Positions 4,249-53,129 of a DNA stretch of 53,702 bases are shown piece by piece. Below the pieces are notes generated by a model. That model did no database searches and had not been told where the DNA came from. It saw nothing but the letters and a program-made list of their open reading frames with translations. The DNA lies in the NCBI GenBank assembly GCA_963575745.1, contig CAUYUJ010000296.1:62001-115702 (forward strand). Direction: 5' to 3'. Source of the stretch: Prorocentrum cordatum. Its lineage: Eukaryota. Numbering within the stretch: the stretch's first letter is position 1; each line of letters starts with the position of its first letter. The position numbers and the translations under genes were made by a program.

Positions 4249-4270
4249 CTTGAGCCAAAATGGCTACGGA
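4249..4270 (-). other. Complete dinoflagellate spliced leader in genomic DNA
   Basis: Minus strand reads TCCGTAGCCATTTTGGCTCAAG, 22/22 match to DCCGTAGCCATTTTGGCTCAAG. Confidence 0.97.
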
Positions 4271-12500: not shown

Positions 12501-15353
12501 CGTCGTCTCATTAGGCATCTGGGCAATCCCAGACTGGGTATTGTGAAACTGCACTTCTTGCTCAGACTCATTCTTAAGCCACCCGTGTATCTTCTTGGCC
12601 CCACCTTTCAGCCCGGTGGAGATCCAATCCCGCAGGGGCTGCCCGCCATTTTTCCGAGCCTCGCGACTGAGGATAGGCGCGCTGGCCCCGAGCGTTGGAA
12701 GTGAGCCAATCGGCCCACATCTGCGCGTGTTGTGGCTCTCCCAGCGGGCTTAAGTGATGATGAACTTCGGCTGCTTGGGCAGCCGACGTGGCCCCGAGTG
12801 CATGTAGGCGGTCGGCTCCACCGCGCCTAAGCGAACGAGCTAGGTCAACAAGTCTAGCAGAGATAGACGACCAAAAGGCGAAATCAGGGCACGCAGATCC
12901 CTGCTTGATGGTACCTCGTTGGGGAGGGGGCCCGAACCGAAGCTTGGCGCCAGAACCTCTGGCGCCTCGGGTGGGTTCCCGCTTGGCCCTCGACCTGGAG
13001 CGCGACGGGTTTCGGCCGCCGCGGACCCTTCCAAGTGCATTTTGCCCAGGTGTCCTGCGTGGGCATGCGCGTGGTATGACAGGGGAGCTCCTTCCACTTC
13101 CTGTGGCACTTGGTGGTCCTGGCTCGCACCAGCCCCCACTTCCTGCGCGTGGTGGCCCCGCTGTTGGTCAGGCCAAACTGCTGGCAAAAGGGAGGTGGCT
13201 TGCTTCGCTTGCAAACTTCAGCCTGCATGACTGCGTGAGGTAGCGTAGTATCTAATGGCGCATGGCTTCTTGGAGTGTTTCCAGATCAGCTTCAACGTGG
13301 ACAAATAACCCAAGATCATGGGGCTCAATGTCAGTACTCGTTTCACACGTATAGGTAACACTACTAGGTTCAATCACTCCCTCCTTCTCTTGCTCGCGGA
13401 AGCCACATTGATGCAGCGCGAGCGGTTCAACAATAAAGCCACCAACGAGGGCCCGCGGCATCTCGATCATATCAACGAAATCGGCGATCTGCTGGAGGCG
13501 CTTAACATTGGTGGCGTCTACTCCAACACCTGAAACCTGATGAGCCACCCCTGCTGCCAACGCAACACTTTTCGTCTTGATTTCCAGGAAGAACGGGGAC
13601 GCGCCAACTCCGATATCATGCGCTCCACCTGGGACCCCTCGAGGAAACCGTTCCATGTAGATGCCGTTCTGGGCCGCCGCGCCGACGCCTCCTTGAACGC
13701 AGCCTCCTGGTGGCGCTGCGGCAATCCGGAAATTGGGCCTCCGACCCATCTGTGCGCGCTCTCGCTCAGCGGCTTCGAGCCGCGCTTCGTCGCCCGCGTG
13801 ATGTTCAGAAAAGATAAGCGTCCGTGTCGGTCAGCGCCAAAGAGATGAAATCTTTCGCAAGCGGTGGCCCGCTAGCTGCGTCGGCCAACTTGAGACTCGA
13901 TTCTCGCCCGTGCTTGTTGCTGAAGCTGTTGCTGGACTGACTTGGGGGGTGGGCGGGGGTCGCGTTGCGCGCAAAAGCGGGTGCCAGAAGATCATTAACA
14001 TAGGCCGCCGCCTTGGGGCGGTGGGCCGTCTTGGCCCCGAACTTGTCGGTGAGGAGGGCCCCCAGCCGCTCCGGGTCGCCTGGGTCGACAGCGTCGGCCG
14101 TGCGCTTAAGCCTCGGCGCCTCGAGCTCCTTTGACCACTCTTCGTCGAGCAAGTCTTGTCTGCGTCATCGCCGATCCCGACGGGTCGTTCCTTGCCTCCG
14201 AGTTCTTCTTCGTTGTGAGCAGCTGGCCCTCCACCAGCGCCTTCTGCGCGAAGTAGATTACGCGCTGCCAGCTGGGCTGTGCGTAGAGCTTGCCATTCTG
14301 CGAGAGAAACTTGGGTGACGTCGGCAATGCGCCGCAGGTCGTCATCGTTGAACTCGCGAAGCCGATGTAGTAGATCAGGTTGGAAGGCTGCCGCGGCAGC
14401 GGCGGTGGCGGACCAGGGCGGGGCGCTCCCTGCAGCCGTTGGGCTGGCGGGGCTGGCCGCCTGACTGGCGGGGCAAGCCTCGCCGCCGTCGGGGTCAGGC
14501 GGCCTGGGGCCCCAAGCCCTCGCGGCCTCCGCTGCTGCCTGCTGCGCGCGCCTGTGCTCCTCCCCGTCGAACTGGGACTGGGTGGCTTTCGCTTCATCAT
14601 GCGTTTTGCGAGAGACCTCCAACTCGCTGGTAGCTTGTTGGTGCGCTCGCTGCTTCTGCCTCAGCCACGTTCGCACGATGTTTCGCCAACACCTGCTTCA
14701 CCGACTGGTACTGCCACGCCATCCTCCCCGATTTAGCCGCCTGCTCCACATCTTGAGCGGACTGGGTCCTCTTGGCCGCCGCGAGCGCGTCCAACTCAGT
14801 GGCGGGCGGCGGCCGACGGCGGCTGCGGGGGAAGCCTTGGCTGGCAGAAGAGCTTGAACGTGCTGCCGAAGACTTGGGAACGCATCAGTAGCTGCTTAAA
14901 CTTGCTGCGGAGGAATATATCAACGGACGTGCCATCTCATTGATAAACTGCTGGCGCCGATTCAGTTGAACTTTGTCGATCTGGGCACCCACACTTGGAG
15001 TGAGACCTGTCCCCAGTAGGTGTACTCCGAGTGCCCGCACTTGTTGTTGCCACTGTAGGGATAGCTCTGGTCCTCGGTTCGACGCTGCCGAGGCCGACGC
15101 ACACCACCTGCACCACGAGGGTGGCCAGCTTGAGAAGGCTGGCCCTGCCATACCCACGGCGCGCGGGTCCATTGCTGGCCATGCGCGCCCAGGTGCTCCA
15201 CCAAGAGCTCACAAAACTCAGCCCCCAGATAGCGTGCGGGCTTCTCTCTGGTAGCAATCTCGCTCTGCTAATGGGACTTGGGATTGCCACGCAGCTGCGG
15301 ACAAGCTCGAGGCCTCGCGGCAAGGTTTCGAACTTGAGCCAACATTCCTACGG
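9525..15353 (-). mobile_element. Decayed, apparently full-length non-LTR retrotransposon (LINE): ORF1-like, APE-like, RT and RNase H remnants
   Basis: Ordered frameshifted remnants: APE-like (GVGVDATNVKRLQQIADFV..PRALVGGF, about 13250-13750); RT (FLNIAAPLPK about 12180, VLVGCSQS, FAHVDDVTQ about 11680, VKDLGV about 11460); RNase H (QSPHRAELTA, FCTDY, WVKSH, ANAAADMFA, about 10050-10420); C-terminal Cys/His motifs; (GGA)n on both sides; 3' boundary approximate. Confidence 0.8.
15333..15353 (-). other. Degenerate DinoSL at the 5' boundary of the LINE
   Basis: CCGTAGGAATGTTGGCTCAAG vs CCGTAGCCATTTTGGCTCAAG, 18/21, directly abutting the flanking microsatellite. Confidence 0.8.
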
Positions 15354-40973: not shown

Positions 40974-42079
40974 CTCCTCCTTCTCCTCCTCCTCCTCCTC
41001 CTCCTCCTCCTCCTCCTCCTCCTCCTCCTCCTCCCCCTCCAGCTGCTGTCTGTGGTGCACCCAGGATGCAGGAAGCTGCGCGGTGTAACGCCAGTCGGCG
41101 CACGAGGCGGCGACGGGTGGCCACCGTCCGAAAGCCTGGAGACGCCCCAACCGGCGGGCTCGAGCCATTCGTCTCCGCGTGGATCCCTCTGCCTGCCAGT
41201 CGTGCACGCTGCTCCAGGCCGTCGCCTGCGTCCAAGACGCCGCAGATGGCACCCTTGACGCGCGCCCGTAGTCGTGGCACTCTCTCCCTCGGTCGTGCCT
41301 GCTCCACTCCAGGTGCCTCCTCGCCAGCCCGGCGACCAGCCTTGGAGCGTCTCGGTCCCGAACGCTCGCGCGTCGGAGCCGAGATCTGCTCCAGCCTGCG
41401 CCGTCTGATCTCCAGCGTGATTCCCACTCTGCTATGAGCTCCAGGGGTCGAACGGGGCCGAACGGATCTGGACTGTCGGATCCTCTACCGTACTCCGCTG
41501 GTCCCCCCCCGGGAGCTTGTGCACTGGGTTCGACTGTCGAGCTCCGCTGGGAGCCCCTCGTCGTCTCCAGCTGTGTAGCACTGAGGACGTCTCGTGCCAA
41601 TTTCTCGGCGTCGTCCTCGGAAATGGAGACCCTCCTGCTGCTTCAGAACTGCCATCACCGAACTCACCAGCGATTGACTTACCTCTGCTGCTGGTGATGG
41701 CCCTCGATTATCATCTTCTCCCGCCGCTGCCGTCATCGGTCCGTAGAATAGAGCTGCTCACAACTCCGCTACCACTGTCGCCCCTCAGGCGACAACGATG
41801 GGATTAAAGATGTAGAGAAACCGGTTTGCCACTAGCCAGCACCCTCGCACTCCAGTGCAGTGCACTGCAGCCACAGACCTATATTTGACCAGCAAGGAAA
41901 TTAGAGAGGTAGATGGGAAAGCGAGCATGGAAATGTGTATAATAAAAGGTGGATGGGAATTGGGAAAGGAAATGGGTCTTGAGCCAAAATTGTCAAGACC
42001 CTGTTTTCCTGGCCTTCAAACTCAGGGAATCTTGTGAGCTGTCCATCGGATCTGAAAACACAAACGCATCCAGACTCGA

Positions 42080-42505
42080 ATCTCAGGGACGGGGCCGCCG
42101 CCATGTCGGTGAGGACGAAAACACCGTGCATCGCCGCGTACAAGGTGAGGCAAGCAAACAGGGAGCGGAAAGCATTCGAAATGCCGTAGCCGTCTTTCGC
42201 TCAACCGTGGAGTCTCCATCGCAGCCCCCCTGCCCGCAAAAGGTGGTCAGGTCCTTCTGGATCCACCCCTCCATCTCGGCGAGGAAGACGTACCCGTTGC
42301 CCTTACACGTCCGGCTATTGTGAGCTGCGCAGAAGGGGGCCTGCAAGTGCCCGAGTTCTTGAACTCCATTTCCCTGCAACTGCTGCCTCAGGACTTCGCG
42401 ATCTCGTCGAAGCTGACGGCCCCGCCCTCTGCAGTCCAGCTTGTTGACGGTCGCCGCGGGCTGGTCCGCTTGGCGGTCGCCTCCGCCAGGCAGCAGCCGC
42501 CCATC
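42080..42505 (-). pseudogene. Frameshifted EF-hand (flagellar calcium-binding protein/calflagin-like) pseudogene fragment
   Basis: Across frames: MGGCC, GAVSFDEI, KGNGYVFLAEMEGWIQKDL (EF loop DxNGNGYVSLAE-like), AFRML..YAAMHGVFVLTD. Confidence 0.5.
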
Positions 42506-42798
42506 GGGGGTGAGGAGGAGGAGGAGGAGGAGGAGGAGGAGGAGGAGGAGGAGGAGGAGGAGGAGGAGGAGGAGGAGGAGGAGGAGGAGGAGGAGCAAGG
42601 CGGCCGTGGGGCAGCGCGGAACCAGCGGGTTCCTCGCCGCGCGCCACCGCTCACGGCGTGCCCCGCTCCTCCCCGCGGCCCCGCCGCCGCCTGGGGCGAC
42701 GAAGCCCCCGCCGCGCCACCGCCGTGGAGGCCCGCGCGGGCGGGGCGGAGGCGTGCGCTGGGGCCCAGGCTGCGGGTCTTTCACCCCCATCGGAGGAT

Positions 42799-42814
42799 CC
42801 AAAATGGCTACGGT
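42799..42814 (-). other. Partial DinoSL (5' 16 nt)
   Basis: ACCGTAGCCATTTTGG, exact match to SL nt 1-16, abutting a microsatellite. Confidence 0.6.
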
Positions 42815-43071
42815 CCTCCTCCTCCTCCTCCTCCTTCTTCTCCTCCTCCTCCTCCTCTCCCTCCTCCTCCTTTTCCTCCTCGTCCTCCTCCGCCTCCTCC
42901 TCTTCCTCCTCCTCCTCTTCTTCCTCCTCCTCCTCCTCCTCCTCCTCCACCTCCTCCTCCTCCTCCTCCTCCTCCTCCTCCTCCCCTCCCCCCCTCGTGC
43001 CCCTCCCCGGCCTCCTCCTCCTCCTCCTCCTCCTCCTCCTCCTCTGACAGGGCGCTCCAGCCCCGCGCAGC

Positions 43072-43121
43072 CTGTTCTCTTCCTCCATCCTCGACCGGTG
43101 GATGGCCTGTTCCACGAGCTC
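43072..43121 (-). CDS. UBX-domain protein, exon A (ELVEQAIHRSRMEEEN; UIM-like); upstream exons not located
   Basis: gcag|GAG acceptor, AG|gc donor, 50 nt phase 2, joins exon B in frame; 'L..AI..S' resembles a ubiquitin-interacting motif. Confidence 0.68.
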
Positions 43122-43429
43122 CTGCAGGACTGAGGCGAAGGCGGAGAGGACGAGCCTGAGGGAAGGAGAGGAGATAGGCCGAAGGCCCTCGACTCCGTCC
43201 GGGTGTTGCCCAAGGTGGCCCTGGCCAGGCCTCTCCCCTTCCCCTCAACCATGCCCTACACCCGTCACCTACTGCAGCCGAGCAAAAGAACTGCGTGAAA
43301 CTATCATGCGAGAAACCGGAGCTTGGCACCTTTAGTTGGTACGGGTAACCAGAACTTGGCACATTTCGTTAGGGTGGCTGGCAGCCCTCTCCACTTGCTC
43401 AGGGAACCTCCTCCTCCTCCTCCTCCTTC

Positions 43430-43806
43430 GCGCCATCATCACCCTCATGATGATGGTCACCACAATAATCACACCAATCACACGCACACCACAAAATATG
43501 TAACCACCATAACCATCCATCATCAGCGACAGCCTCGTTCCCATCCTCATCTTCACCATCAACATAAACATCATCCGCATCACCATCAACATCAGTATCA
43601 CCACCATTACCACCATACTCATCATACTCATCATCAGCACCACACTGATCATCATCACCATCATCATCACCACCAATATCATCATCAGCAAAGCGAGCAT
43701 CATGATCATCGCAACTATTACTATCACCATCACCAGCACCATCATCATCGTCACCAGCATCGTCATCGTCATCATCGTGATCATCATCATCGTCATTATC
43801 GTCACC

Positions 43807-43840
<34 letters not shown>

Positions 43841-44269
43841 TCATCGCCATCGTCATCATCGTCATCATCATCACCACCAGTACCACCCTCCCAATGTGAC
43901 AATCATGACAATCCATCACCAGCGACAGCCTCATCACCATCACCACCATCACCATCACCATCATCATCATCATCATCGTCATCATCAAATGGGGCGGTTT
44001 TGTTGGATGCTCTGGGTATGGCGAACATAAAAATTATGATTCTGCTGCTGCTGCTGATGATGATGATGCTGCTGCTGGCAATGCTGATGCTGATGATGCT
44101 GCTGATGATGGTGATGATGCTGATGGTACTGCTGCTGATGATGACGAAGCTGATGATGATGTTGTTGATGAGGATGATGCTGCTGCTGATGATGATGACG
44201 ATGATGCTGGTGAAGAAGAACATGATGATGCTGCTGCTGCTGATGATGATGATGCTGATGATGATGATG
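43430..44269. repeat. (CAT/CAC)n tract followed after a ~50-bp spacer by an opposite-polarity (GAT/GCT)n tract
   Basis: Direct reading. Confidence 0.92.
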
Positions 44270-44379
44270 ATCCCCCCGGGCTTCGTTTTCCAGCCAGACG
44301 GCGTAGCACGAGTCGACGACCTTTGCGAAACGGAGCGGGCGAGGCCAGAACATTCGGGAGCCGAGCTCGCACACCTCCC
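44270..44379 (-). repeat. Terminal repeat B2 (110 bp, identical to B1 at 44544-44653)
   Basis: atccccccgggcttcg...gctcgcacacctccc occurs twice. Confidence 0.96.
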
Positions 44380-44452
44380 CTTCAAAAACAACTAACGAGG
44401 AAGAAACCTTAAATTGAAAGAAAAACAGGGCGGCGGTTGGGGTAGATGGGGG

Positions 44453-44495
44453 TGAAGCTAGAGCCAAGATAGGACGGAAGACGCAAGGATGCTGC
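44453..44495 (-). repeat. Repeat A2 (43 bp, 41/43 identical to A1 at 50911-50953)
   Basis: tgaagct(a/t)gagccaagat(a/t)ggacggaagacgcaaggatgctgc. Confidence 0.93.
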
Positions 44496-44682
44496 CACGG
44501 CTGTCCCACTCCGCTCTCGAGGATTTCCGTACAAGTACAAGGCATCCCCCCGGGCTTCGTTTTCCAGCCAGACGGCGTAGCACGAGTCGACGACCTTTGC
44601 GAAACGGAGCGGGCGAGGCCAGAACATTCGGGAGCCGAGCTCGCACACCTCCCAAACCTGGCGGACCTCCAGGACCACCCGA

Positions 44683-45458
44683 TCAGCAATCTGGCCCCGA
44701 CGGGGCCGCAAACACCTTCTTGTCGAACAACTCGGCTTTAGACGAGGCCCACGCATTGTAGTAGATAGAAGCCAGGGCTTTACAAAGTCCAGGAGGATAA
44801 GGCTCGGCGATCTTGGACCAGAATACACCTTTGTCGTTTTTCCCTTGGATGGGGATGTGCGGCTGGCCGGTGCGCTTGCACAGGCCACGCCTGGTGCCGA
44901 GACAGCGACCCTCGGCGAGGGCGTCCATGCACAGCCCCGTGCTGAGGAAACTGGTCGACTTCCTCCACTGGGCGCCCCGCATGCAGAAATCGGTGACGGT
45001 GAAATTGATCTTGTTGGATTTTCGAAGTCTCTGCATGGCGGGGCAAATCCAGATGCGGCTCCGGGCGGGGTTCTCAAGAGTAGCTGGTATTCCCAAAAGC
45101 ATAGCATCCCGCATCACCGCCACGGAGAAAAACATTAACAAGTTGCCGACGCGAACCTTGTCGGCGTCGGCGGGGCTCAGGTCGTCGAGGCCCATGGGTG
45201 GCGAGTTAGACCTCACGGTGGAGGGCCTGGGGGCACATCGCGTGCCCGCGAAAACGAGGGGCATGGTGTTCCCAAGTGGGCGCCAATCACGATGCCTGAG
45301 CGGATCCATCCTCTGATGAGGCTGCGGTTCCGGGCCAGACGAAGATCGTAATCGGCACACGGCTCCACGTCCCAGAGAAGAACGTTCACGCCCTCCCTCG
45401 CGACCGCTTGGCCGAGCCGGCCTGGCCCCAAGAAGACCTCGAGGAAGAAGCGGACCTG
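44683..45458 (-). CDS. C5 cytosine DNA methyltransferase domain (one frameshift near 45215-45225)
   Basis: Motif I FLEVFLGPGRL, II LLWD, IV HLGTPCPSFS (catalytic PC), VI LENP, VIII-like QWRKST, X-like YPPGLCKALA, in canonical order. Confidence 0.9.
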
Positions 45459-46675
45459 GGGCCGGGGGCCGCCGGACAAGGCCGGCCGCGGACGATGGAG
45501 GCCATCGAGCGCTCGCAGGACAGCGCGTGGGCGCGGAGGTCCTCGGGCAGCTTGAGCAGCACCTGGCCGATGCGGCTGCCCTTCTCGTAGCGCCTGACCG
45601 AAGCCCGCGACCGCCAGCGCCCGCGGCGCCTCACGTCCCCCAGGCTCCTGAAGCCCCCGGCGGAGTCGTGCGAGGCGCCGCCGTGCCTGAGCTGGTACAG
45701 GTGGACGTCGCCGAGGTACTCGTCCAGCTTGAGGCTCCGCGCGACGCCGCACGCCGCCGTCACCAGGTCCTTCAGGGCGAAGTCGAAGATCGGCGAGCCC
45801 GGGCTCCGGCCCTGGCAGAGGGCCTTGAGCGCCGGACCGAGAGGGGCATGCCGCTCCAAGTCCAGGCGCATGGACTCGTCGAACTCGTTCGTCTTTGACG
45901 ACCTCCCGACCTCCTGCGCGTGAAGCGTGATGGCCCAGCAGGGGGCGCTCGCCACGCCCAGCACCGGGGGTATGAGGTCCACCACCCTCACGTTGAGAAT
46001 CTCGCCTGGCCGAAGGTACAGCTCGAAGATCACGACGATCGCGATCGCGAAGGGCAGCTTCCCCAACCTGACCAGCTCGTTGGCGATCAGGGCCACCGCC
46101 TCGCGCGGCAGCGGAAGCCGCGACTGGGGAGGGCAGCAGCGCCTGAACCCCTGGAGGGCCCTCCGGCTCCTGGGCATGAGGGCCCCCGCGGACTTCTGGA
46201 GGCCCGTGAAGAACGTCACCGCCGCGAAGCCCCACTGGGCCGAGCCCAGGTTCTCGCCGCCCAGGTGCAGCGCGTCCAGCCACCCCACGAGCTGCTGGTC
46301 GACGCCCGCCTCGGAGGTCGCCACCGGGACGGCGAGCCACGCCAGGAACTCGGCGAACAGCGACTGGTACTTCTGCCGCGTCCGGGGCCGAACCGAGGCG
46401 CTCTCGAGCACCGTGAGCCCGCCCACTGTGACAGCAGAAGCCCTCCGCCGGGCCGCGACGTCGGCCACCGTCTGGCGCTTCCTCTTGGCCGGAGGAGGGC
46501 GGGCAACGGCTGGCCGCCGGCGCGGCGGGCCGGGGGCCCGCGCAGACGTAGAGAGGTTCGCCGTCATGGCACCACGGGTGGCCTCCCGCCTGTCCAGCGG
46601 CGAGGCCAGCGGGGCCGTCGGCGCCGCCGTCCGCGCGCCGGTCGAGGTCGGTGCGGGGCTGGCCCGCAGGAGCAT
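45386..46675 (-). CDS. Tyrosine recombinase (integrase) of the element
   Basis: YLRPGE (Arg), SSKT (Lys), YQLRHGGAS (HxxR box), GRW, RRYEK (catalytic Tyr); upstream core-binding-like helices; the true start may be the later ATG (MTANL). Confidence 0.92.
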   Translation of the reverse strand: MLLRASPAPTSTGARTAAPTAPLASPLDRREATRGAMTANLSTSARAPGPPRRRPAVARPPPAKRKRQTVADVAARRRASAVTVGGLTVLESASVRPRTRQKYQSLFAEFLAWLAVPVATSEAGVDQQLVGWLDALHLGGENLGSAQWGFAAVTFFTGLQKSAGALMPRSRRALQGFRRCCPPQSRLPLPREAVALIANELVRLGKLPFAIAIVVIFELYLRPGEILNVRVVDLIPPVLGVASAPCWAITLHAQEVGRSSKTNEFDESMRLDLERHAPLGPALKALCQGRSPGSPIFDFALKDLVTAACGVARSLKLDEYLGDVHLYQLRHGGASHDSAGGFRSLGDVRRRGRWRSRASVRRYEKGSRIGQVLLKLPEDLRAHALSCERSMASIVRGRPCPAAPGPRSASSSRSSWGQAGSAKRSRGRA

Positions 46676-46689
46676 GTTTGGAGAAATCG

Positions 46690-49054
46690 AGCGGGCTCGG
46701 AGCAGCTGGAGCCCAGAGGCCTCGGGAAGGAGAGTCCGCGACGTTCCACTCCGAGGGCAACCATCGATAATGCAAGGCCGAACCGGTCGCGAGCGAGAGG
46801 GCCGCGATCGCCTGGGTGACCCGCATCATGCTACGGCTGTCGCTCCGAAACCGCGTCACCGCCCCGGCCGTCGACTGCGAGTCCCCCAGGACCAGCGCGT
46901 GCTTCCCGAGGTTCCGAGACGAACGAAGGAGATGACGAAAGCCGTACAGGGTGGCCCTGGCCTCGTGCACGGCGATGCTCTCCCCCTTGCGCCTCCACGG
47001 GAAGCGACCGACGACGGACCACTGCAGCTCGATCATATCCCGCGGGACCTCTGGGAAGTCCACGACCCGCCTGACCCGACCGAACCCGAAGACGTCGCCG
47101 GGGCTGTCCAGGACACCTGAGCCAGCTGAGGGGGGCTGAGGGGGTGCGCACTCGGGCCCCGGGACGTCGTTGGCGGCGGCGATCCAGGGGGCAGCCTCGC
47201 GGGCCTCCCCCGCCAGGGCCGCCGCCGCCTCGGCTTTACGAGCGTGGTCCAGCGCGTGGCGACGAGGACCCATGGCAGCGCCGACCCGACCCCAGCGCCA
47301 TCGCTCCGAGGTCCGGCCGACGCTCCGGGCCAGAGAGGCCCCACACTGTGCGGCGCACGCCCCCAGCCCCCACTCACTAGCATCGACGGCCGCCACCTCG
47401 TCGCTCCAGCCCGCCCGGAGGTCCCGCCAGAGGAGAGGAGCAAGCCCATCCCAGAGAGAGAGAGTTCGCGACGTACCGAAGCCCACAGACGCTCTTCCTG
47501 GGTGTAATTCTTCCTGACGAAGGCATAGCACGACCAGAACGGCGATAACCCCTCCCGGCGGGCCAGGGAGAGGAAGACAAGATGCCCCAGGAGGCGCTCC
47601 AGGTCACGCCCAGAGCACCCCCCCCTCCGGAGGACCGCCCGAATTGCCAGGCGGGCCCTCCAGAGGCGGACAGGGGTGGCAGCCACGCGGCCCCGGGGCC
47701 CGTCGATCTGCCACCCCAAAACCTGGGCCACCTTGTCCTCCCCAGAATACTCCTCCTCATGGACGACCAGACCCCGCCCTTCAAGAGCACGAATAGCATC
47801 AGCAACGAGAGAGCGAACAGCACTGGCGTCGGTAGAGACGGCGATGAAGTTGTCCACGTACTGCGAATGGCACGCTCGATGAAGGTCCAGCGTCACCTGC
47901 TTATCTACAATGCGGTTCTCCGGGGAAGCTCCGGCTTGTTCCACAATGCGCTCGTGGGCCGTTTGACGCATCCACAGGGCCCAGCTCCAGCCCATCGGTA
48001 TCACAGACAGTCGGGGGTAGACCATGGCTGACGGAGGAACGGGCTTCCCATTGACCCTAGTACACCCCGCCGCCCCCGCCCGCGCGGCCCTGAAACAGAA
48101 AAACGGTCTCAAATCGGGAGGCAACTGCATATGATAAAAGGCGTCTGACAAATCGGCTCCGCCAACATGCAACTCCTCACCCTCGCCGAGCTCCGGCCCT
48201 GCCAGGCCTTCGCCGGTGAGGAGGGGAACGGGGGCGGGGTCCTGGAAATGACAGTTGCTTCTACGACAGTCAACTACCAGCCGGAGCTTCCCGGATTTCT
48301 CGTGCGCGAAAAATGCTTCAACCCTTTCCTTGCATGAGAAGCTGAAATCTACCATGCCTCGCTGCTGCAATGCACGGATGAACTCCTCAAAAGCCGCGAC
48401 CCGACGCAGCTTAGGATCACTATGCGGCACCGCGACCTGATAATTTTTCAAACGAGTATCTACCTCACTAGACGGTAGCAATCGGCTTTGGACGAAGTCC
48501 CTAATCATGTCCGACCCGCCCGCGCCCCGAAAATCCTCGAGCGGTACCGGTGCCGGCGAGCCAGAGGGGGGCGAGACGCTAGCGAGGTTATAGGAACCGA
48601 GCACGGCAGAGTCCACATCATACCAGCTCGCCACGCGAAGCTTCCGGAGAGCTTCTGCGGGAGTCACCTCCGGCGGAGGCGGGCCGAGAGCAGCGACGGA
48701 GTCCCGGGCCCTATCAAGACAGTGACGCTGGCCCAGCGAAACAAAAACTGCTCGGTCGGCGCCCTGGCCGACGGGAGGCTGGTCCTGGTGAAGATAGAGC
48801 GAGTTCAAGGCGTGGACGGCGCGATCGCAGTCCAACTCAAAACTCTCGCGCTTACCCAGACGCTGCCGGACTGCACGGGAGAGCCCCCCGTCGGTACCCC
48901 GATACCGCTCCACCACCGGCCGCGGTAAAGGCAAGATGTCGCGGGGTACCGCGCGGGAGGGCTCGTCTCCGTAATTAAAAGCTTCGTAGGGCGGCGGCGC
49001 ACGGGGCCCGCGCGCGTCCCGGGCGCCGGGAGCGCGAGGCGCAGAAGTATGCAT
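46690..49054 (-). CDS. Reverse transcriptase + DIRS-type RNase H (frameshift in the (GA)n run at about 47453-47464)
   Basis: RT: KSGKLRLVVDCRRSN, ADLSDAFYHM, IPMGWSWA, QYVDNF; RNase H: VDASEWGLG, IAVHEARA, LGDSQ, RWLPSEWNVADSPSR; the end given is the domain end, as the frame stays open to 45213. Confidence 0.92.
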
Positions 49055-49166
49055 GAGGGGGAGAAACCCGGAGGACAGGAGGAGGGGGACGAACAGAGTA
49101 CAAGAGGCCTGCACTGCACCCTCAGAACAGCGCGGGCCAACCTCAGATGTAGATGTCGGCGGCGGC

Positions 49167-50467
49167 TCACGACTTGTCGCCCCCGCCTTTCTTTCGGGCG
49201 GCTTCTCGCTCCTCGCGGCCCTTCCGGAGGGCCTTGTTGAGCTGCGCCTCCCGCTCCACGTCAACGCGAACCACGTCGAGGAGCTCCAGACAGATCATCA
49301 GCTGCCCCGAGCCCCGGCTGAGCCCCGAGAACGCCTGCTGCTCCTCGAGGCTGAGGCGGCCACTGTACCCTTTCGACTCCGCCTCCTTCGCCCGCTCGAG
49401 GTGGGCGAATTCAATGGTTTGCATTCTCCTCAGCAGCATCTCCACCATGACCAGATTCGTGCCGTCGAGCTGGTCGACGAGGAGGCCGGCCTTGACCGCC
49501 GCCGTCTCGAGGTGCTCGGCCACCCCCCAGGCGTTGGGCTCCAGGCGGCGCAGCGATCGAAAACGATCATGGTGAGCGTCCAAGCTGCCGCCCTCCGAGT
49601 TGATGTGCTCCAGGCACCACCCCGCCGTCCGGACGCCACCGAGCGTCCAGTCCTTGCCGAAGTCCTCCTTCGTCACCGCGGCACACATGTCAGCCCACGT
49701 GCGCTCCCGCCGCCCAAGCCTGTTGCGGCGCACCGGGAGGATGCGGGCGTCGCTGGCCACGATGCGGTCGAAGAACTCCTGCTCGTCTGCCGGCCGCAAG
49801 TACTGCACGAAGAGGCCCGAGCCGTCCGCAAGCCGGTGGATGTCCTTGTCCCCGATGGCGCCCGCTCCGGCCTGGTGGGGCACGTCGTCCCCCACGCGGA
49901 AGCCGCCGAAGCACTCGGCGGCGACCCAGCGAGCAGCACCACGTCCGTCAGCCGCGCCAACAGCCACAACCCCCTGCAGGGGCCCGACAGGCGGCGGCAC
50001 ACGCGCGGGCGCCGCGGCTCCGGGAGCAGCGGGCGCGCCCGCAGCAGCCACCACCGCGGCAGCCCCCGCGCCGGCCGCGGGTCCGCCCACCGGGACCGGC
50101 AGCAGGCAGTGGGCGTCCACCGCCGGGGCCGCCACGCCTTGGGCCGCAGCCCGGCGCACTCGCCCGCGGCCTCGGGCACCGCCGCGGCGAGGAAGGCGGC
50201 CCGCTGCGCCACCGTCGGCTCCGCCCGGAAGCGGTAGACGTCCCCGGGAGGGATGCCGTCCGGCAGCACGTTGAAGGCCGTCGCCCACCTCACAGCCGCG
50301 ACGTCGGCCGAGCCTGCACTGTAGTCCTCCGCGTACACGTGCCGGTCGGGGGTGGCGATCACGAAGAGCTTACCAGCCGATAACGCCACCTGACCCAGCA
50401 CCAGCCTCTGGTGCCAGACCTGCCGGGGGCCGGCCCCGATGTACAGCACGTACGCCCACGTCGCCAT
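49167..50467 (-). CDS. Gag-like ORF of the element (one frameshift near 50150)
   Basis: ATG 50467 MATWAYVLY..WHQRLVL..ATPDRHVYAE; continues in the 49167-50288 frame with helical and coiled-coil C-terminus; position upstream of RT; Gag identity is positional inference. Confidence 0.7.
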
Positions 50468-50882
50468 CGCTCACGGGGGCAGGCCCTGGCTCCGAGTCGT
50501 CCTGGATGGCGGCCCGCCTGCGCCTGCGACAGCACCGAGCCGCGCGCCGAGCGCTCAGCAGCGCCGCGGGCGCCGCGAGGCCGAAGGCCACGCCGCACAC
50601 GAACCAGAGCAGCCCCCAGCCGCGGCCGGCGCACGGGGCTGCCTCCGGGGCCTGCGGGCAGGCCGGCCACGCCGCCGGCCCAGCCGCCGGCGCGAGGCCC
50701 GGGCAGGCCGGGCAGGTCGGGCACGAGAGGCCCGGGCACGCGGGCGCCTGGCAGGCGCCGCAAGCCTGGCAGGTGAGCGCCGGGCAGGCCGGGCACGGCG
50801 GCGACGCTGGGCACCGCGCGATGTAGTTCACCAAGCCCTGCGCGGCGTACTCCCCCCCGCGCTGCACCACCTAGTCGAACAT
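50370..50882 (-). CDS. ORF0: small Cys/Pro-rich single-pass membrane protein (probable TGG>TAG at codon 4)
   Basis: ATG TTC GAC TAG GTG at 50882; repeated CPxC motifs, hydrophobic GWGLLWFVCGVAFGLAAPAALLSA, then CC and RRRRR; lies between repeat A1 and gag, overlapping the gag start. Confidence 0.6.
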
Positions 50883-53129
50883 GGGGGGTCCGCCGCGGGC
50901 GCCGCGCCTTTGAAGCTTGAGCCAAGATTGGACGGAAGACGCAAGGATGCTGCGATGATGATGAGGATGACGAGGGGGAGGAGCGAAGGCGGGGAGGAAT
51001 GAAATGAGACCAATGAAGGGAAGGCGGGGAAAGAGGGAGCGGAGAAGGGGGCGAGGGAGGGCGAATCCCCCTCCTCCTTCCTCGTTTTCCATATCCCCTC
51101 TCCTCATCCCCCTCCGTCTATTTCTCCCTGCGTCCATACACGTGACTTCACTTATCCTCACCTGGCCATCATGCGTCTTGGTAGGGCGGGCCAGACGTTT
51201 CGCCTGAGATGGCCCTGGCGCTTGAACATTGCAACAAACACACGGGTGGATGGGGCGGCCAACACGTGGTTATCGCCGTTGCGCCGCGCACATTCGTCTT
51301 AAACGTTACCAACTTTTGCACGGATGGGAGGGGGGGTTCAAACTGTGAGCAAGCATTCCAACATGGGGGGGGGGGTTACCAGCCTTTGCACGGATGTGCG
51401 ACATTGGTATTCTAAGTTGCCAACAGTTACACGGATGGAGGGCGGTTGCGTTTTAAACGACAGCGCTCGCCTTAGCGCCGCGCATACTTGTCTTAAACAC
51501 TTCCGAGTACAACGTTGCCTTCAAGGGGGTGACCAACATGTGGTTCTCGCCTTTACGCTGCGCGCCTTCGTCTTACACAAGTCCAACAATTACGCGGGTG
51601 GAGCGGGGCGGTTTCCATCAATTGACTCTCGCATTAGCGCCGCGCATATTCGTAGTACAAGTCACAAACAGTCACACGGATGGGGGGAGGGGGCGCTTTC
51701 CAAAGGTGGCTATCTCCTTACGCCCGCGCGCGTATGTTTGAACAACTCCAAACGACGGTTGTAAAGATGGAGAGGCAATTCCTTCTCTAAGTGTGGCTCT
51801 TGCCTCAGCGCCGCGCACATTCATGTGAAACAACTTTCAACGGCTATATGTATGGAGGGCGGTTCGTTTTCGAAGCTGAACTTCCACCCTAATTATCATG
51901 TCCAGACGTTTTAGAGTTGTGCAGCGGCTGCACGGATGCGCGACGGCTCAATTTCAATTCGGCGTTCTCGCTGGATGCTTCCTTGGACTTTCTGGTCCCA
52001 CTTCGTGACCGCCCTTATAGCCAGAGGCATGGATGAAGGCTCCTTTTCAAACGGGGCTTTCGCCTGAATTGCAGGACCATGGCACGCCCGTCTTACAAAA
52101 GGGGCCCTTTCCGCAGTGAGCAGGAATTCTTGTAGGGGGCTAATGAGTAGGGGACTCGGGACGGGTGGGCGTACTGCAACATTGTTGATTCATCTTTGGG
52201 TTTACTCTGGTCCTCTTCTTCTCCTACTCCTCTTCCTCCTCGTACATCACGCTCCTTTATCCTCCCCGTCCTCCCCCGCCTCTTTGTCATCCTCCATTTT
52301 CTGTGTCCCCACGTCCTCCTCATCCTCACCCCACAATCTCTCCCCACTCCTCACACATCCAAACTTTTCAAGCCGTCACATTCAAAACTTGTGACCGCTT
52401 TTCTCAACACGTTTTACCCTGCACCGTGTTGGAGGGGGTGAAGGGACAGAAGCGACCCCGAGATGCTGAGAAGAACGACGCACATTTGGCGCGACACTTC
52501 CGAGCCGCCAAAACATATAATCCCCTTTCTTCTTGACGCGCCCGGCATGGGAACGGGAAGAACGAGAACGATTCCCAACAGCAGACGTTGTCCAACATCG
52601 ACAACGTCCGCTGCTGGGTAATTCGGCGACTTTCTCCCGACGACGCCCGCGGCGACGCCAACAGCGAACTCTACTCACGTGAACAAGAGTTGCTGTCGGT
52701 TTTCGTCCCCGCTCCCTTCCTTCCCACTTCGGTCCTCCAGGTCGGTACCGATCGGTCCTCTGCAGCGACCTTTTCGGCGGCGCCAAGGGTCTGGGTTCCC
52801 AGACGCCTCCACAAATTTCCAGGGGTCACAAGATCCCCGCAGGTCCCGGGAAGCCTCCGCTGAGATCCTCGGAGGCACCCCGAGGGCCTACAAACTTCCA
52901 AAAAAACGGCGGCGCTCGAGGGGGGGAACTGAGAGGGAGAAGGCCTTCTCAGAAGGTTCGGAAGTCCCCCGGCCTTCTGAGAAGTTTTCTAAGCCTTCCC
53001 CAAAGACCAACAAACCTCGTCAGAAGGCGCGAGGGCTTCTGAGAAGTCCCGCCGCCTTCTGAGAAGGCCTTGCTCTTCTTCTTTCCCCTCTCGCTCGCCG
53101 CCGAAAAAACGTTCAAAAACCTTGAGAAC

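What the first reader, a model, noticed from the sequence alone, without database searches (positions are those of the whole stretch)
44270..50953. Structurally complete YR retrotransposon encoding its own C5 DNA methyltransferase
Seen: Gag-like, RT, RNase H, tyrosine recombinase and a C5-MTase with ordered motifs, all inside split direct repeats; identical B repeats suggest a fairly recent insertion despite a few lesions. Known: DNMT-carrying DIRS elements were reported in Symbiodinium (de Mendoza et al. 2018), while classical DIRS1 carry an adenine-MTase-like domain. Inference: the enzyme could methylate the element's cDNA or circle to mimic host CG methylation. The full set (membrane ORF0, SL-like terminus, microsatellite target) may define an undescribed family.
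Basis: partly seen in the sequence, partly recalled or inferred. Interest (0 to 1): 0.75.

Follow-up and report, generated by a model that had tools for sequence, protein, structure and literature searches.

The report
Dinoflagellate retrotransposon carrying cytosine methyltransferase
This is a decayed copy of a tyrosine-recombinase retrotransposon in a dinoflagellate genome that carries its own cytosine-methyltransferase-like domain, a kind of element already described in coral-symbiont dinoflagellates, so it is a new example of a known kind rather than a new kind.

Summary
The anatomy is real. On the minus strand, 50953 to 44270 reads A1, ORF0, ORF1, RT, RNase H-like, recombinase, methyltransferase-like domain, B1, A2, B2. 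The B repeats are 110/110 identical and the A repeats 41/43. The copy is dead: three frame-breaking indels plus an early stop in ORF0.

Intact relatives occur in Prorocentrum, Symbiodiniaceae and Amphidinium. In this clade the recombinase gene lies wholly inside the Pol reading frame, which is kept stop-free (0 stops in 8 of 8 elements; synonymous shuffles give 5 to 17).

The closest described elements are SymbioDIRS-Dnmt3 (de Mendoza 2018): same repeat layout, DNMT in Pol, separate recombinase ORF. Whether this domain is their "Dnmt3" could not be settled. I put it near 55%.

Verdict: new member of a known kind. The "undescribed family" claim is not supported as stated. Interest 0.4.

The parts
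50911..50953 (-). A1, the 5' split direct repeat (43 nt). It contains an SL-like motif at 50936-50916.
   Evidence: It is 95% identical to A2. TTGGCTCAAG occurs 4 times in the window against 0.18 expected by chance. A repeats of relatives end in the same ...CTCAAG(T/C)(G/T)TCA.
50373..50882 (-). ORF0, a small Cys/Pro-rich protein with one strongly hydrophobic segment. ATG at 50882-50880; in-frame TAG at 50873-50871 (codon 4).
   Evidence: Sequence. An ORF0 sits before ORF1 in L004-L008 and L010. A Kyte-Doolittle 19-residue peak of at least 2.0 is present in 7 of 7 ORF0s. Spacing to the RCP motif matches the N-terminus of P0003, by my own reading.
49170..50470 (-). ORF1 ('Gag-like' by position only), split between two frames: 50470-50156, then 49985-49170.
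   Evidence: tblastn with P0003 and P0004 shows the frame change. ORF1 is conserved in relatives. It has no family match: Pfam 0 of 5 and Atlas nothing.
49973..50169 (-). GC-rich stretch of 197 nt, absent from another copy. It accompanies the ORF1 frame change.
   Evidence: One X1 contig skips from 49972 to 50170. P0004 aligns contiguously across it.
47465..49294 (-). Reverse transcriptase part of Pol. Motif C reads YVDN (47860-47849).
   Evidence: Pfam RVT_1 gives E 0.016-0.057 for the window. All 7 RT pieces tested hit RVT_1, and L008 reaches 1.2e-10, above the curated cut-off. The closest proteins are 92-94% identical and named Prorocentrum cordatum.
47450..47468 (-). Frame break between RT and RNase H, inside a (CT)n run.
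   Evidence: The five relatives that span the RT-RH junction (P0001, P0004, P0005, P0007, P0017) all switch frame at 47468/47465. Contigs of other copies lack 2 nt at 47453 (X1 and X2). Sequence.
46689..47468 (-). RNase H-like domain with conserved D, E, D, D positions.
   Evidence: Alignment A8 has E169, D196 and D245 invariant and D29 nearly invariant. Only weak profile support exists: DNA_pol_viral_C in 2 of 9 pieces (E 0.0031 and 0.015). The profile found nothing real in the PDB.
45389..46825 (-). Tyrosine recombinase ORF (479 codons stop to stop). It is nested in the +1 frame inside the open Pol frame (47603-45216).
   Evidence: Alignment A3 conserves YLRP.E, LRHGGA, RG.W and Y. Pfam Phage_integrase hits 3 of 8 members (best 8.6e-4) but not the window itself. 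phrog_1 integrase hits 3 of 8 (best 5.8e-6). hhalign against the L036 recombinase, which passes Pfam's cut-off, gives probability 96.2 and E 2.7e-9. The Pol frame has 0 stops here against 5.5 expected; 4 of 2000 shuffles reach 0.
45216..45503 (-). MT-like domain, N-terminal part: motif I-like FLEVFLGPG and the GTPC catalytic loop. Same frame as RNase H.
   Evidence: It is row 34 of alignment A1, 57% identical to P0063. tblastn maps MT residues 11-86 here.
44686..45240 (-). MT-like domain, C-terminal part (LENP, WRKST, C..C..H, AEPYP), shifted by one frame. The break lies near 45216-45231.
   Evidence: phmmer found 2570 representatives at E<=1e-3; the best is 88% identical. tblastn shows the frame change. 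Other copies carry one more base at 45212-45215. Fold evidence comes through P0063.
44544..44653 (-). B1, internal copy of the 3' repeat.
   Evidence: 110/110 identical to B2.
44453..44543 (-). A2 (44453-44495) plus the 48 nt between B1 and A2. Those 48 nt probably belong to the full-length A repeat.
   Evidence: In L008, B1 abuts A2 and A is 82 nt long. Assigning the 48 nt to A is my inference.
44270..44379 (-). B2, the 3' terminal repeat.
44055..44271 (.). Flanking imperfect (TGA)72 microsatellite that abuts B2. About 23 nt of the same repeat lie beyond A1 (50953-50975).
   Evidence: Tandem Repeats Finder; sequence.

Best explanation
The region 44270-50953 (minus strand) is one inactivated copy of a dinoflagellate retrotransposon of the DIRS order. 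These elements integrate with a tyrosine recombinase, and this one is bounded by split direct repeats (A1-coding-B1-A2-B2).

Its family encodes ORF0 (a small hydrophobic protein), ORF1 (unknown fold), and a Pol of about 1370-1400 residues. Pol reads RT, RNase H-like, a poorly conserved bridge of about 390 residues, then a compact C5 cytosine-methyltransferase-fold domain of about 250 residues. The recombinase gene lies entirely inside the bridge, in the +1 frame.

Shown here:
- the anatomy of the copy;
- homology of each enzymatic part to its family;
- the C5-MTase fold and conserved catalytic-type residues of the MT domain;
- selection keeping the Pol frame open across the recombinase gene;
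- the lesions of this copy.

Inferred, by analogy with the DIRS model and with the yeast assays on SymbioDIRS-Dnmt3:
- RNA running from A1 to B2 is reverse-transcribed;
- the internal B1-A2 junction templates the joining of the ends;
- the recombinase inserts the DNA without a target duplication, probably at a CAT triplet, which would explain the (CAT)n flank;
- the Pol-borne MT domain methylates CG sites of the new cDNA, so that it resembles the heavily CG-methylated host DNA.

This copy cannot do any of that on its own.
For: Anatomy.

Host context:
- 6 of the 12 RT homologs are named Prorocentrum cordatum, up to 92% identical.
- A perfect 21-nt dinoflagellate spliced-leader sequence lies at 4249-4269.

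Enzymatic domains:
- RT: RVT_1 in 7 of 7 pieces, with L008 above the curated cut-off.
- YR.

MT domain:
- 2570 representative proteins at E<=1e-3.
- Invariant Cys after a near-invariant Pro; near-invariant E-N-P, W.K.T and Y-P.
- AlphaFold2 pLDDT 94.5, pTM 0.90.
- All listed Foldseek matches are C5 MTases, E 7e-5 to 2e-3.
- PHROG 'DNA methyltransferase' families match 19, 16 and 11 of 35 members, best 4.5e-8.
- The Atlas's nearest cluster is auto-named cytosine-5 methyltransferase.
- One relative's domain (L026) passes Pfam PF00145's cut-off with 26.6 bits. Its clade is homologous to the window's clade over 230 columns (hhalign probability 100, E 4e-58).

Nested recombinase gene:
- Pol ORFs of 1369-1402 codons each contain a YR ORF of 367-402 codons in L005-L008.
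- The Pol frame has 0 stops in 8 of 8 elements, against shuffle means of 5.5-17.1.
- 0 of 2000 shuffles reach zero in 7 loci, and 4 of 2000 in the window.
- The YR frame is the better conserved one in 28 of 28 pairs.

Lesions.

Placement: the window groups with 3 P. cordatum proteins (100/100) inside the nested-YR clade (88/86).

Published parallel: SymbioDIRS-Dnmt3 has A-coding-B-A-B repeats, DNMT in the Pol ORF and a separate YR ORF. Two distantly related copies methylated CG de novo in yeast (PMC5890265, passages).
Against: Profile and sequence searches mostly fail:
- The window's own MT peptides hit nothing in Pfam, PDB sequences (one unrelated hit at E 1.7) or PHROGs. The link to C5 MTases is transitive, through relatives.
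- PF00145 is passed by only 1 of 30 MT domains from loci.
- PF00145 is flagged on 1 of 94 and 0 of 56 long relatives, and found in 0 of 13 at E<=0.5.
- Profile searches of PDB sequences gave only DNMT2 at E 0.19, and nothing for the MT-first clade.

Fold evidence has limits:
- The usual large target-recognition domain is missing. A short Cys/His stretch stands in its place.

Other gaps:
- RNase H has no significant profile or structure support.
- No activity data exist for this clade.
- CpG observed/expected in the element is 1.01, so no deamination footprint is seen. The published DIRS-DNMT elements show none either.
Confidence: 0.8

Rival explanations
1. The MT-like domain belongs to a C5-MTase lineage separate from the published 'Dnmt3' of SymbioDIRS elements, for example an independent capture of a phage-like methyltransferase. 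On this reading the family is an undescribed DNMT-bearing branch of DIRS-type elements that Pfam-based screens scored as 'DIRS without DNMT'.
For: - PF00145 is almost never detected.
- No profile hit to DNMT3A/3B sequences in the PDB.
- The significant sequence matches are to phage DNA-methyltransferase PHROGs.
- The 2018 screen used the Pfam model (section 15) and reports DIRS elements lacking DNMTs (section 7).
- Hoguin 2023 says dinoflagellate DNMT3s, including those of the 2018 paper, align close to red-algal DNMT3s (passages). That implies more canonical sequences.
Against: - The same MT family occurs in two domain orders, MT-RT-RH and RT-RH-MT, with the recombinase ORF placed differently. 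This is what the 2018 text describes for SymbioDIRS-Dnmt3.
- It is present in S. kawagutii gene models, the genome studied in that paper.
- One member does pass PF00145.
- No second DNMT-like domain was seen in any of these elements.
Confidence: 0.4
2. The domain has the C5-MTase fold but does not methylate DNA. It could act on the element's RNA, as Dnmt2 acts on tRNA, or serve only as a nucleic-acid-binding module.
For: - Dnmt2 enzymes are among the best sequence and fold matches.
- There is no canonical target-recognition domain.
- No CpG depletion in the element.
- The 2018 paper raises RNA methylation for the LINE-borne DNMT.
Against: - The catalytic-type Cys is invariant; the Pro before it, E-N-P and the motif I glycines are strongly conserved (near-invariant in A1, invariant in the 6-row A2). 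A mere binding module would not need these.
- The DIRS-borne DNMTs that were tested methylated CG in DNA, if they are the same family.
Confidence: 0.15
3. The copy is really intact, and its frame breaks are assembly or sequencing errors.
For: - One break lies in a (CT)n run.
- The region is 68% G+C.
- Contigs from public runs carry the frame-preserving lengths at all three sites.
- All conserved MT, YR and RNase H residues are still in place.
Against: - There are four independent defects, including an in-frame TAG at ORF0 codon 4 and a 197-nt difference.
- The A repeats differ at 2 of 43 positions.
- The laid contigs are mostly 90-99% alike, so they are other copies and not this locus.
Confidence: 0.12

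Closest known systems
SymbioDIRS-Dnmt3 retrotransposons of Symbiodinium (de Mendoza et al. 2018, PMC5890265)
   Same: Both are dinoflagellate DIRS-type elements with A-coding-B-A-B repeats. Both have a divergent RT that Pfam barely detects, a DNMT domain sharing the Pol ORF with RT, and a separate recombinase ORF. The MT family found here also occurs in two domain orders, as that paper describes. Neither shows CpG depletion.
   Different: The host here is Prorocentrum-like, not Symbiodiniaceae. The MT domain is almost invisible to PF00145 and has no profile match to DNMT3 structures. In this clade the recombinase ORF lies wholly inside the Pol frame. The paper's main text has no word on nested or overlapping ORFs. 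Its figures and main supplement could not be read.
PAT-like elements (PAT, Toc, kangaroo) of the DIRS order
   Same: Split direct repeats, and a methyltransferase-position domain after RT-RNase H in Pol (Piednoel 2011, PMC3266345, passages).
   Different: The classical MT domain is Dam-like (adenine N6), according to the 2018 and 2026 texts. Here the fold is that of C5 cytosine MTases, and no N6 MTase appears among the listed matches.
DIRS1-like elements with 'long ORF overlap'
   Same: The Pol and recombinase reading frames overlap extensively.
   Different: DIRS1-like elements have inverted terminal repeats with an internal complementary region, and the catalytic part of their recombinase is encoded outside the overlap. 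Here the repeats are direct and split, and the whole recombinase, catalytic motifs included, is inside the Pol frame.
Ngaro elements
   Same: Split direct repeats, RT-RNase H and a tyrosine recombinase.
   Different: [quoted passage not shown] This family has both.
C5 cytosine methyltransferases (M.HhaI, DNMT1, DNMT3A/B, Dnmt2)
   Different: The domain is only about 250 residues long. It lacks a canonical target-recognition domain and has conserved Cys..Cys..His in that place. Sequence identity is 8-18%. It is below Pfam's threshold in nearly all members.
Other DNMT-bearing retrotransposons (the Gypsy elements with Dnmt3 in Klebsormidium; EpiLTRs of Cymbomonas and Euglena)
   Same: A retrotransposon Pol carries a cytosine methyltransferase.
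   Different: Those are LTR (Gypsy-type) elements with DDE integrases, in other eukaryotic lineages, and their DNMT domains are assigned to Dnmt3 or near DNMT4.

Membership tests
DIRS order (tyrosine-recombinase retrotransposons) | Reverse transcriptase | tested here: met
   RVT_1 hits 7 of 7 RT pieces. The window scores E 0.016 and L008 scores 1.2e-10, above the cut-off. Window ORFs gave E 0.025-0.057.
DIRS order (tyrosine-recombinase retrotransposons) | RNase H after RT | tested here: inconclusive
   The D, E, D, D positions are conserved in alignment A8. Profile support is weak: DNA_pol_viral_C in 2 of 9 pieces, E 0.0031 and 0.015. The profile found nothing real in the PDB.
DIRS order (tyrosine-recombinase retrotransposons) | Tyrosine recombinase in place of a DDE integrase | tested here: met
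   The R..HxxR..W..Y-type motifs are conserved. Phage_integrase hits 3 of 8 members, though not the window itself. phrog_1 integrase hits 3 of 8. hhalign E 2.7e-9 to a recombinase that passes Pfam's cut-off. No integrase or protease family appeared in any Pfam scan.
DIRS order (tyrosine-recombinase retrotransposons) | No target-site duplication | tested here: inconclusive
   The flanks are a microsatellite, so a duplication cannot be read. In L008 the element starts and ends with CAT, and B1 overlaps A2 by CAT. This fits 3-bp homology without a duplication.
PAT-like superfamily | Split direct repeats A1...B1 A2 B2 | tested here: met
   The same layout with 100% identical repeats is found in L008.
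PAT-like superfamily | Dam-like (adenine) MT domain in Pol | tested here: not met
   The domain in that position has the C5-MTase fold, and all listed fold matches are C5 enzymes. No Dam or N6 family appeared in the Pfam scans of this clade.
DIRS1-like superfamily | Inverted terminal repeats plus an internal complementary region | tested here: not met
   The only inverted repeats found are microsatellite arrays outside the element. The terminal repeats are direct.
Ngaro superfamily | No MT domain | tested here: not met
   An MT-like domain is present at 44686-45503.
SymbioDIRS-Dnmt3 | A-coding-B-A-B repeats | tested here: met
   published layout from the legend of Fig. 1e.
SymbioDIRS-Dnmt3 | DNMT domain in the same ORF as RT; recombinase in a separate ORF | tested here: met
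   Intact relatives L005-L008 have one Pol ORF spanning RT to MT and a separate, nested YR ORF. In the window the frames agree apart from the indels.
SymbioDIRS-Dnmt3 | DNMT recognised by Pfam DNA_methylase and placed in the Dnmt3 clade | tested here: inconclusive
   The window gave no hit. In the wider family, 1 of 30 domains passes the cut-off. No Dnmt3 sequences were available for a tree. Fold scores for DNMT3A/B, DNMT1 and M.HhaI are tied within about 1 Z.
SymbioDIRS-Dnmt3 | Host in Symbiodinium | tested here: not met
   The nearest named proteins, 87-94% identical, are from Prorocentrum cordatum. Symbiodiniaceae relatives are 33-44% identical in RT-RNase H.
C5 cytosine DNA methyltransferases (PF00145) | Profile match above Pfam's cut-off | tested here: not met
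   The window peptides gave 0 hits up to E 10. Among A1 members, 2 of 35 hit, best E 0.019.
C5 cytosine DNA methyltransferases (PF00145) | Fold, with motif I (F.G.G), the Pro-Cys loop and E-N-x in order | tested here: met
   The motif residues are present in the window copy.
C5 cytosine DNA methyltransferases (PF00145) | Methyl transfer to cytosine C5 | not testable with these tools
   Assays exist only for the published SymbioDIRS-Dnmt3 domains.

The most novel reading that the evidence does not exclude
The dinoflagellate DIRS-type elements carry a compact C5-MTase lineage of about 250 residues that standard profiles do not see, with a Cys/His mini-insert where the target-recognition domain normally sits. 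It spans at least Prorocentrales, Symbiodiniaceae and Amphidinium. On this reading, methyltransferase capture predates Symbiodiniaceae, and Pfam-based censuses have scored many such elements as DNMT-less.

In the window's clade the entire recombinase gene, 1.1-1.4 kb, is dual-coded inside the Pol frame between RNase H and the MT domain. That would be a third architecture beside the two in print.
Probability: 0.35. Interest if true: 0.6.

Novelty: new member of a known kind. Interest (0 to 1): 0.4.

Why it matters
The 2018 paper asked for data from other dinoflagellates, to learn whether DNMT-bearing retrotransposons arose before or after the unusual dinoflagellate methylome (Discussion passage).

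This window and its relatives place the same kind of element in Prorocentrum, and the MT family in Amphidinium as well. That points to an old acquisition.

They also show that profile-based counts of transposon-borne DNMTs can be large underestimates. Pfam detects 1 of 30, 0 of 56 and 1 of 94 members.

Finally, the family offers a clean case of a complete enzyme gene overprinted on a polyprotein frame.

Tried and rejected
Profile and sequence searches that found nothing useful:
- Pfam on the window's six long ORFs and five domain pieces: only a weak RVT_1 hit.
- phmmer of the MT piece against PDB sequences: one unrelated hit, E 1.7.
- PHROGs on the window's two MT pieces and three P. cordatum relatives: no methyltransferase hit.
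- NCBIfam on A1: dcm in 2 of 35 members, best 0.001; a daptide MTase in 3 of 35.
- tblastn of P0063 against 50,697 phage records: no match.
- Profiles against PDB sequences: YR found nothing at E<=1, RT-RH only a group II maturase at E 0.065, the MT-first clade nothing, and RNase H only designed repeat proteins.
- ESM Atlas on ORF1: no usable hit.

Window and scan look-ups:
- A second copy in the window: none at DNA level or protein level.
- Earlier findings of this scan: nothing by sequence or for this genome.

Public sequencing runs:
- No RNA holder listed.
- The one run guessed to be RNA was laid only as contigs, so nothing can be said on expression, transcript starts or trans-splicing.

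Tools that were not available:
- Search of the window's own genome.
- A second structure job for RT-RNase H.
- Cluster members and their names.

Other points:
- The first metagenome scan with the 35-row alignment had no stretch conserved enough. A six-row alignment worked.
- Supplements of PMC5890265: the main supplementary PDF is too large to read. The readable files are the peer-review file and a species table. Supplementary Fig. 3, with the DNMT motifs, and Fig. 1e could therefore not be compared with this domain.
- The idea that the element is a classical PAT or DIRS1 member was rejected on the membership tests.

Full report
ANATOMY

The element lies on the minus strand.
- The repeat finder gives B2 44270-44379 = B1 44544-44653 (110 nt, 100%) and A2 44453-44495 ~ A1 50911-50953 (43 nt, 95%).
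- On the minus strand the order is therefore A1, coding region, B1, 48 nt, A2, 73 nt, B2.
- The only inverted repeats found are microsatellite arrays outside the element.
- The frame map and tblastn with relatives place the parts as follows: ORF0 (50882-50373), ORF1 (50470-49170, in two frames), RT (49294-47465), an RNase H-like part (47468-46689), a tyrosine recombinase ORF (46825-45389), and a methyltransferase-like (MT) domain in two frames (45503-45216 and 45240-44686).
- No second copy is in the window at DNA level or protein level.
- The element is 68% G+C against 58.5% for the rest of the window. Its CpG observed/expected is 1.01 against 0.80.

HOST

Of 12 RT homologs, 6 are named Prorocentrum cordatum (best 92% identity), 1 is from S. 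kawagutii, 1 from Symbiodinium sp. CCMP2592, and 4 are unnamed. A 21-nt sequence that I recalled as the dinoflagellate spliced leader occurs perfectly at 4249-4269 (minus strand), against 0.01 matches expected. The window is dinoflagellate DNA, most likely Prorocentrum.

RT, RNASE H, RECOMBINASE, ORF1, ORF0

RT:
- Pfam on the window's own pieces gives only a weak RVT_1 hit, E 0.016-0.057.
- All 7 RT pieces tested (6 loci and the window) hit RVT_1, and L008 passes the curated cut-off at 1.2e-10.
- The 2018 paper itself notes that Symbiodinium DIRS RTs fit Pfam poorly (section 15).

RNase H:
- It is supported by E169, D196 and D245 being invariant and D29 nearly invariant. It also has two weak hepadnaviral RNase H hits, in 2 of 9 pieces.
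- A profile search of the PDB found nothing real.

Recombinase:
- The motifs YLRP.E, LRHGGA, RG.W and Y are conserved in 8 of 8 rows.
- Pfam Phage_integrase hits 3 of 8 members (best 8.6e-4) but not the window's own ORF.
- phrog_1 integrase hits 3 of 8, best 5.8e-6.
- The alignment matches the recombinase of locus L036, which does pass Pfam's cut-off (E 2.1e-7), with hhalign probability 96.2 and E 2.7e-9.

ORF1 has no match anywhere, so 'Gag-like' is a guess from position.

ORF0 is poorly conserved in sequence. It has a strongly hydrophobic 19-residue segment in 7 of 7 elements.

THE MT-LIKE DOMAIN

The window's peptides fail Pfam up to E 10, PDB sequences and PHROGs. Even so, phmmer of the C-terminal piece against 1.84 billion representatives finds 2570 proteins at E<=1e-3 and 1090 at E<=1e-10. 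Many of these matches sit at the C-terminus of proteins of 1300-1500 residues.

An alignment of 33 stand-alone members plus the two window pieces shows an invariant Cys preceded by a near-invariant Pro. E-N-P, W.K.T, two further Cys, a His and Y-P are also near-invariant.

Sequence-level links to methyltransferases are weak but consistent:
- The profile's best PDB hit is DNMT2 (E 0.19), aligned in register at motif I and the Pro-Cys loop.
- PF00145 appears in 2 of 35 members, best 0.019.
- TIGR00675 dcm appears in 2 of 35.
- Three PHROG 'DNA methyltransferase' families match 19, 16 and 11 of 35 members, best 4.5e-8.
- The Atlas's nearest cluster is auto-named a cytosine-5 methyltransferase and has no common Pfam family.

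Structure:
- AlphaFold2 on member P0063 with this alignment gives pLDDT 94.5 and pTM 0.90.
- Every listed Foldseek match is a C5 MTase: DNMT1, MET1, DIM2, Dnmt2, DNMT3A/B and M.HhaI, at E 7e-5 to 2e-3.

All conserved motif residues are still present in the window copy. The domain is a compact C5-MTase-fold module of about 250 residues. Its activity is inferred, not shown.

FAMILY-WIDE ARCHITECTURE

A metagenome scan returned 46 loci. Three layouts carry this MT family:
- (A) ORF0, ORF1, and Pol = RT-RNase H-[recombinase region]-MT, with the recombinase ORF in the +1 frame. This is the window's layout, shared with L001-L013.
- (B) Pol ending in RT-RNase H-MT, with the recombinase ORF downstream.
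- (C) an ORF of about 985 codons that begins with MT, followed by RT-RNase H.

The MT domains of A and C are clearly homologous (hhalign probability 100, E 4e-58, 230 columns). One C member, L026, passes PF00145's cut-off with 26.6 bits. It is the only one of 30 MT domains to do so, and none of the clade-A MT domains among those 30 gave any PF00145 hit.

In a maximum-likelihood tree of 40 MT rows, the window groups with three P. cordatum proteins (100/100) inside clade A (88/86). Layouts A and C each need a single change on the tree. Rows with frame breaks or stops (L011, L015, L019 and shorter pieces) were left out. Two rows have very long branches.

THE NESTED RECOMBINASE GENE

- In L005-L008 (45-52% G+C), Pol ORFs of 1369-1402 codons contain recombinase ORFs of 367-402 codons entirely within them.
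- Across the recombinase ORF, the Pol frame has 0 stops in 8 of 8 elements.
- Synonymous-codon shuffles that keep the recombinase protein give means of 10.4-17.1 stops, or 5.5 in the GC-rich window.
- Zero stops are reached in 0 of 2000 shuffles for each of the 7 loci, and in 4 of 2000 for the window.
- The third frame has 18-28 stops, or 8 in the window.
- The recombinase frame is the conserved one in 28 of 28 pairs (median local score 628 against 176).

The Pol frame is therefore kept open as a bridge to the MT domain, but not conserved as protein. A related 'long ORF overlap' is in print for DIRS1-like elements. There, however, the catalytic part of the recombinase lies outside the overlap (PMC3266345, passages).

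LESIONS OF THIS COPY

- ORF1 changes frame between 50156 and 49985. One contig of another copy skips 197 nt here.
- The five relatives that span the RT-RNase H junction (P0001, P0004, P0005, P0007, P0017) all switch frame at 47468/47465. The site is a (CT)n run. Contigs in two runs have 2 nt fewer at 47453.
- The MT domain changes frame near 45231. Contigs in two runs have one more base at 45212-45215.
- ORF0 has TAG as its fourth codon. The spacing to the next conserved motif matches P0003 (my reading).
- The laid contigs are mostly 90-99% alike, so they are other copies and not this locus.
- The 48 nt between B1 and A2 have no counterpart before A1. In L008, B1 abuts A2 and A is 82 nt long. 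I infer that A1 is shortened at its 5' end. The A1 of L011 is likewise only 29 nt long.

TERMINI AND TARGET

- The A repeats of the window, L008, L011 and L017 all end in ...CTCAAG(T/C)(G/T)TCA.
- In the window the preceding bases resemble the spliced leader: the last 10 nt are identical, and overall identity is about 18 of 22 with one gap by my alignment.
- That 10-mer occurs 4 times in the window against 0.18 expected.
- The B repeats end in ...CAT in L008, L011 and L017. L008 begins and ends with CAT, with a 3-nt B1/A2 overlap.
- The window copy sits inside an imperfect (TGA)72 array, which reads (TCA)n on the element's strand (the same repeat read as (CAT)n in another phase). There are 217 nt of this repeat on one side and about 23 nt on the other.

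Integration by 3-bp homology at CAT would explain the microsatellite flank. This is inference.

COMPARISON WITH WHAT IS KNOWN

De Mendoza et al. 2018 (PMC5890265; I read passages, sections 7 and 15, one supplementary table and the review file; the figures and main supplement were not readable) describe the following for SymbioDIRS-Dnmt3:
- A-coding-B-A-B repeats, a DNMT in the Pol ORF, and a separate recombinase ORF;
- two distantly related architectures with different domain orders;
- no CpG depletion;
- de novo CG methylation in yeast by two copies.

All of this parallels what I find. Against identity with that family:
- Their screen used PF00145, which misses nearly all members here.
- They place the domain in the Dnmt3 clade.
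- Hoguin 2023 (passages) says dinoflagellate DNMT3s sit near red-algal ones.
- My profiles find no DNMT3 in the PDB.

I put the odds that it is the same domain family near 55%. The 2018 main text does not contain 'nested', 'spliced leader' or 'Prorocentrum', and uses 'overlap' only for transcription.

Library searches for SymbioDIRS (2 papers), for Prorocentrum with DIRS and DNA methyltransferase, and for dinoflagellate, tyrosine recombinase and spliced leader found no further description. The 2026 preprint on adenine MTases lists only SymbioDIRS-DNMT3 and SymbioLINE-DNMT for dinoflagellates (passages).

VERDICT

This is a dead copy of a DNMT-bearing, split-repeat tyrosine-recombinase retrotransposon, a kind in print since 2018, here in a Prorocentrum-like genome.

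The features worth keeping belong to the family rather than to this copy:
- an MT domain that profile libraries do not see;
- a recombinase gene fully overprinted on the Pol frame;
- a conserved SL-like motif in the A repeat;
- YVDN in place of YxDD in the RT.

Interest 0.4.

Noticed in passing
window 47860-47849 (minus); relatives P0002, P0005, P0006, P0007, P0017, P0032: RT motif C reads Y-V-D-N instead of the usual Y-x-D-D. This holds in the window and in every relative read, and Y393 V394 D395 N396 are near-invariant in 49 rows. The family has young copies with 100% identical repeats, so this variant is presumably active.
   Followed up: partly
window 4249-4269 (-), 15333-15353 (-), 41978-41987 (-): There is a perfect 21-nt dinoflagellate spliced-leader sequence, a 3-mismatch copy directly preceded by a (CCT)n array, and a third site sharing the last 10 nt. 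These are probably SL relics of retroposed genes or SL genes, all on the minus strand.
   Followed up: no
window 43619-43987 and 44055-44271: Two long imperfect trinucleotide arrays, (TCA)123 and (TGA)72, face each other as an inverted pair just beside the element.
   Followed up: no
L020-L031 and L034, L036, L037, L040, L044 (metagenome loci): The same MT domain occurs at the N-terminus of an MT-RT-RNase H ORF (about 985 codons). It also occurs at the C-terminus of a Pol that has the recombinase ORF downstream. That makes three layouts for one MT family.
   Followed up: partly
P0197 (1748 aa), residues 1478-1512: A Pol with this MT domain also gives a weak N6_N4_Mtase hit (E 0.0045). It may be an element with two methyltransferase modules, or the hit may be chance.
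   Followed up: no
L008 1885-8158: A complete young element of 6274 nt: A1 and A2 are 82/82 identical, B1 and B2 are 113/113 identical, and B1 overlaps A2 by CAT. It would serve as a reference for the intact form of this clade.
   Followed up: partly
L011 1928-1956 and window 50911-50953: In two of three elements where both could be compared, A1 is much shorter than the internal A2 context (29 and 43 nt against about 77-91 nt). What is retained begins at or just before the SL-like motif. This may mark the transcript start.
   Followed up: no
P0005 (Skav216048) and P0003, P0013 (P. cordatum gene models): Public gene models join RT-RNase H to the recombinase, or ORF0 to ORF1, in one frame. The S. 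kawagutii locus is about 73 nt longer than its coding length. This suggests invented introns that hide the overlapping-frame layout.
   Followed up: no
window 42083-43255: Extreme low-complexity, GC-rich stretch that gives long open frames of poly-Arg, poly-Glu, poly-Leu and poly-Pro on both strands.
   Followed up: no
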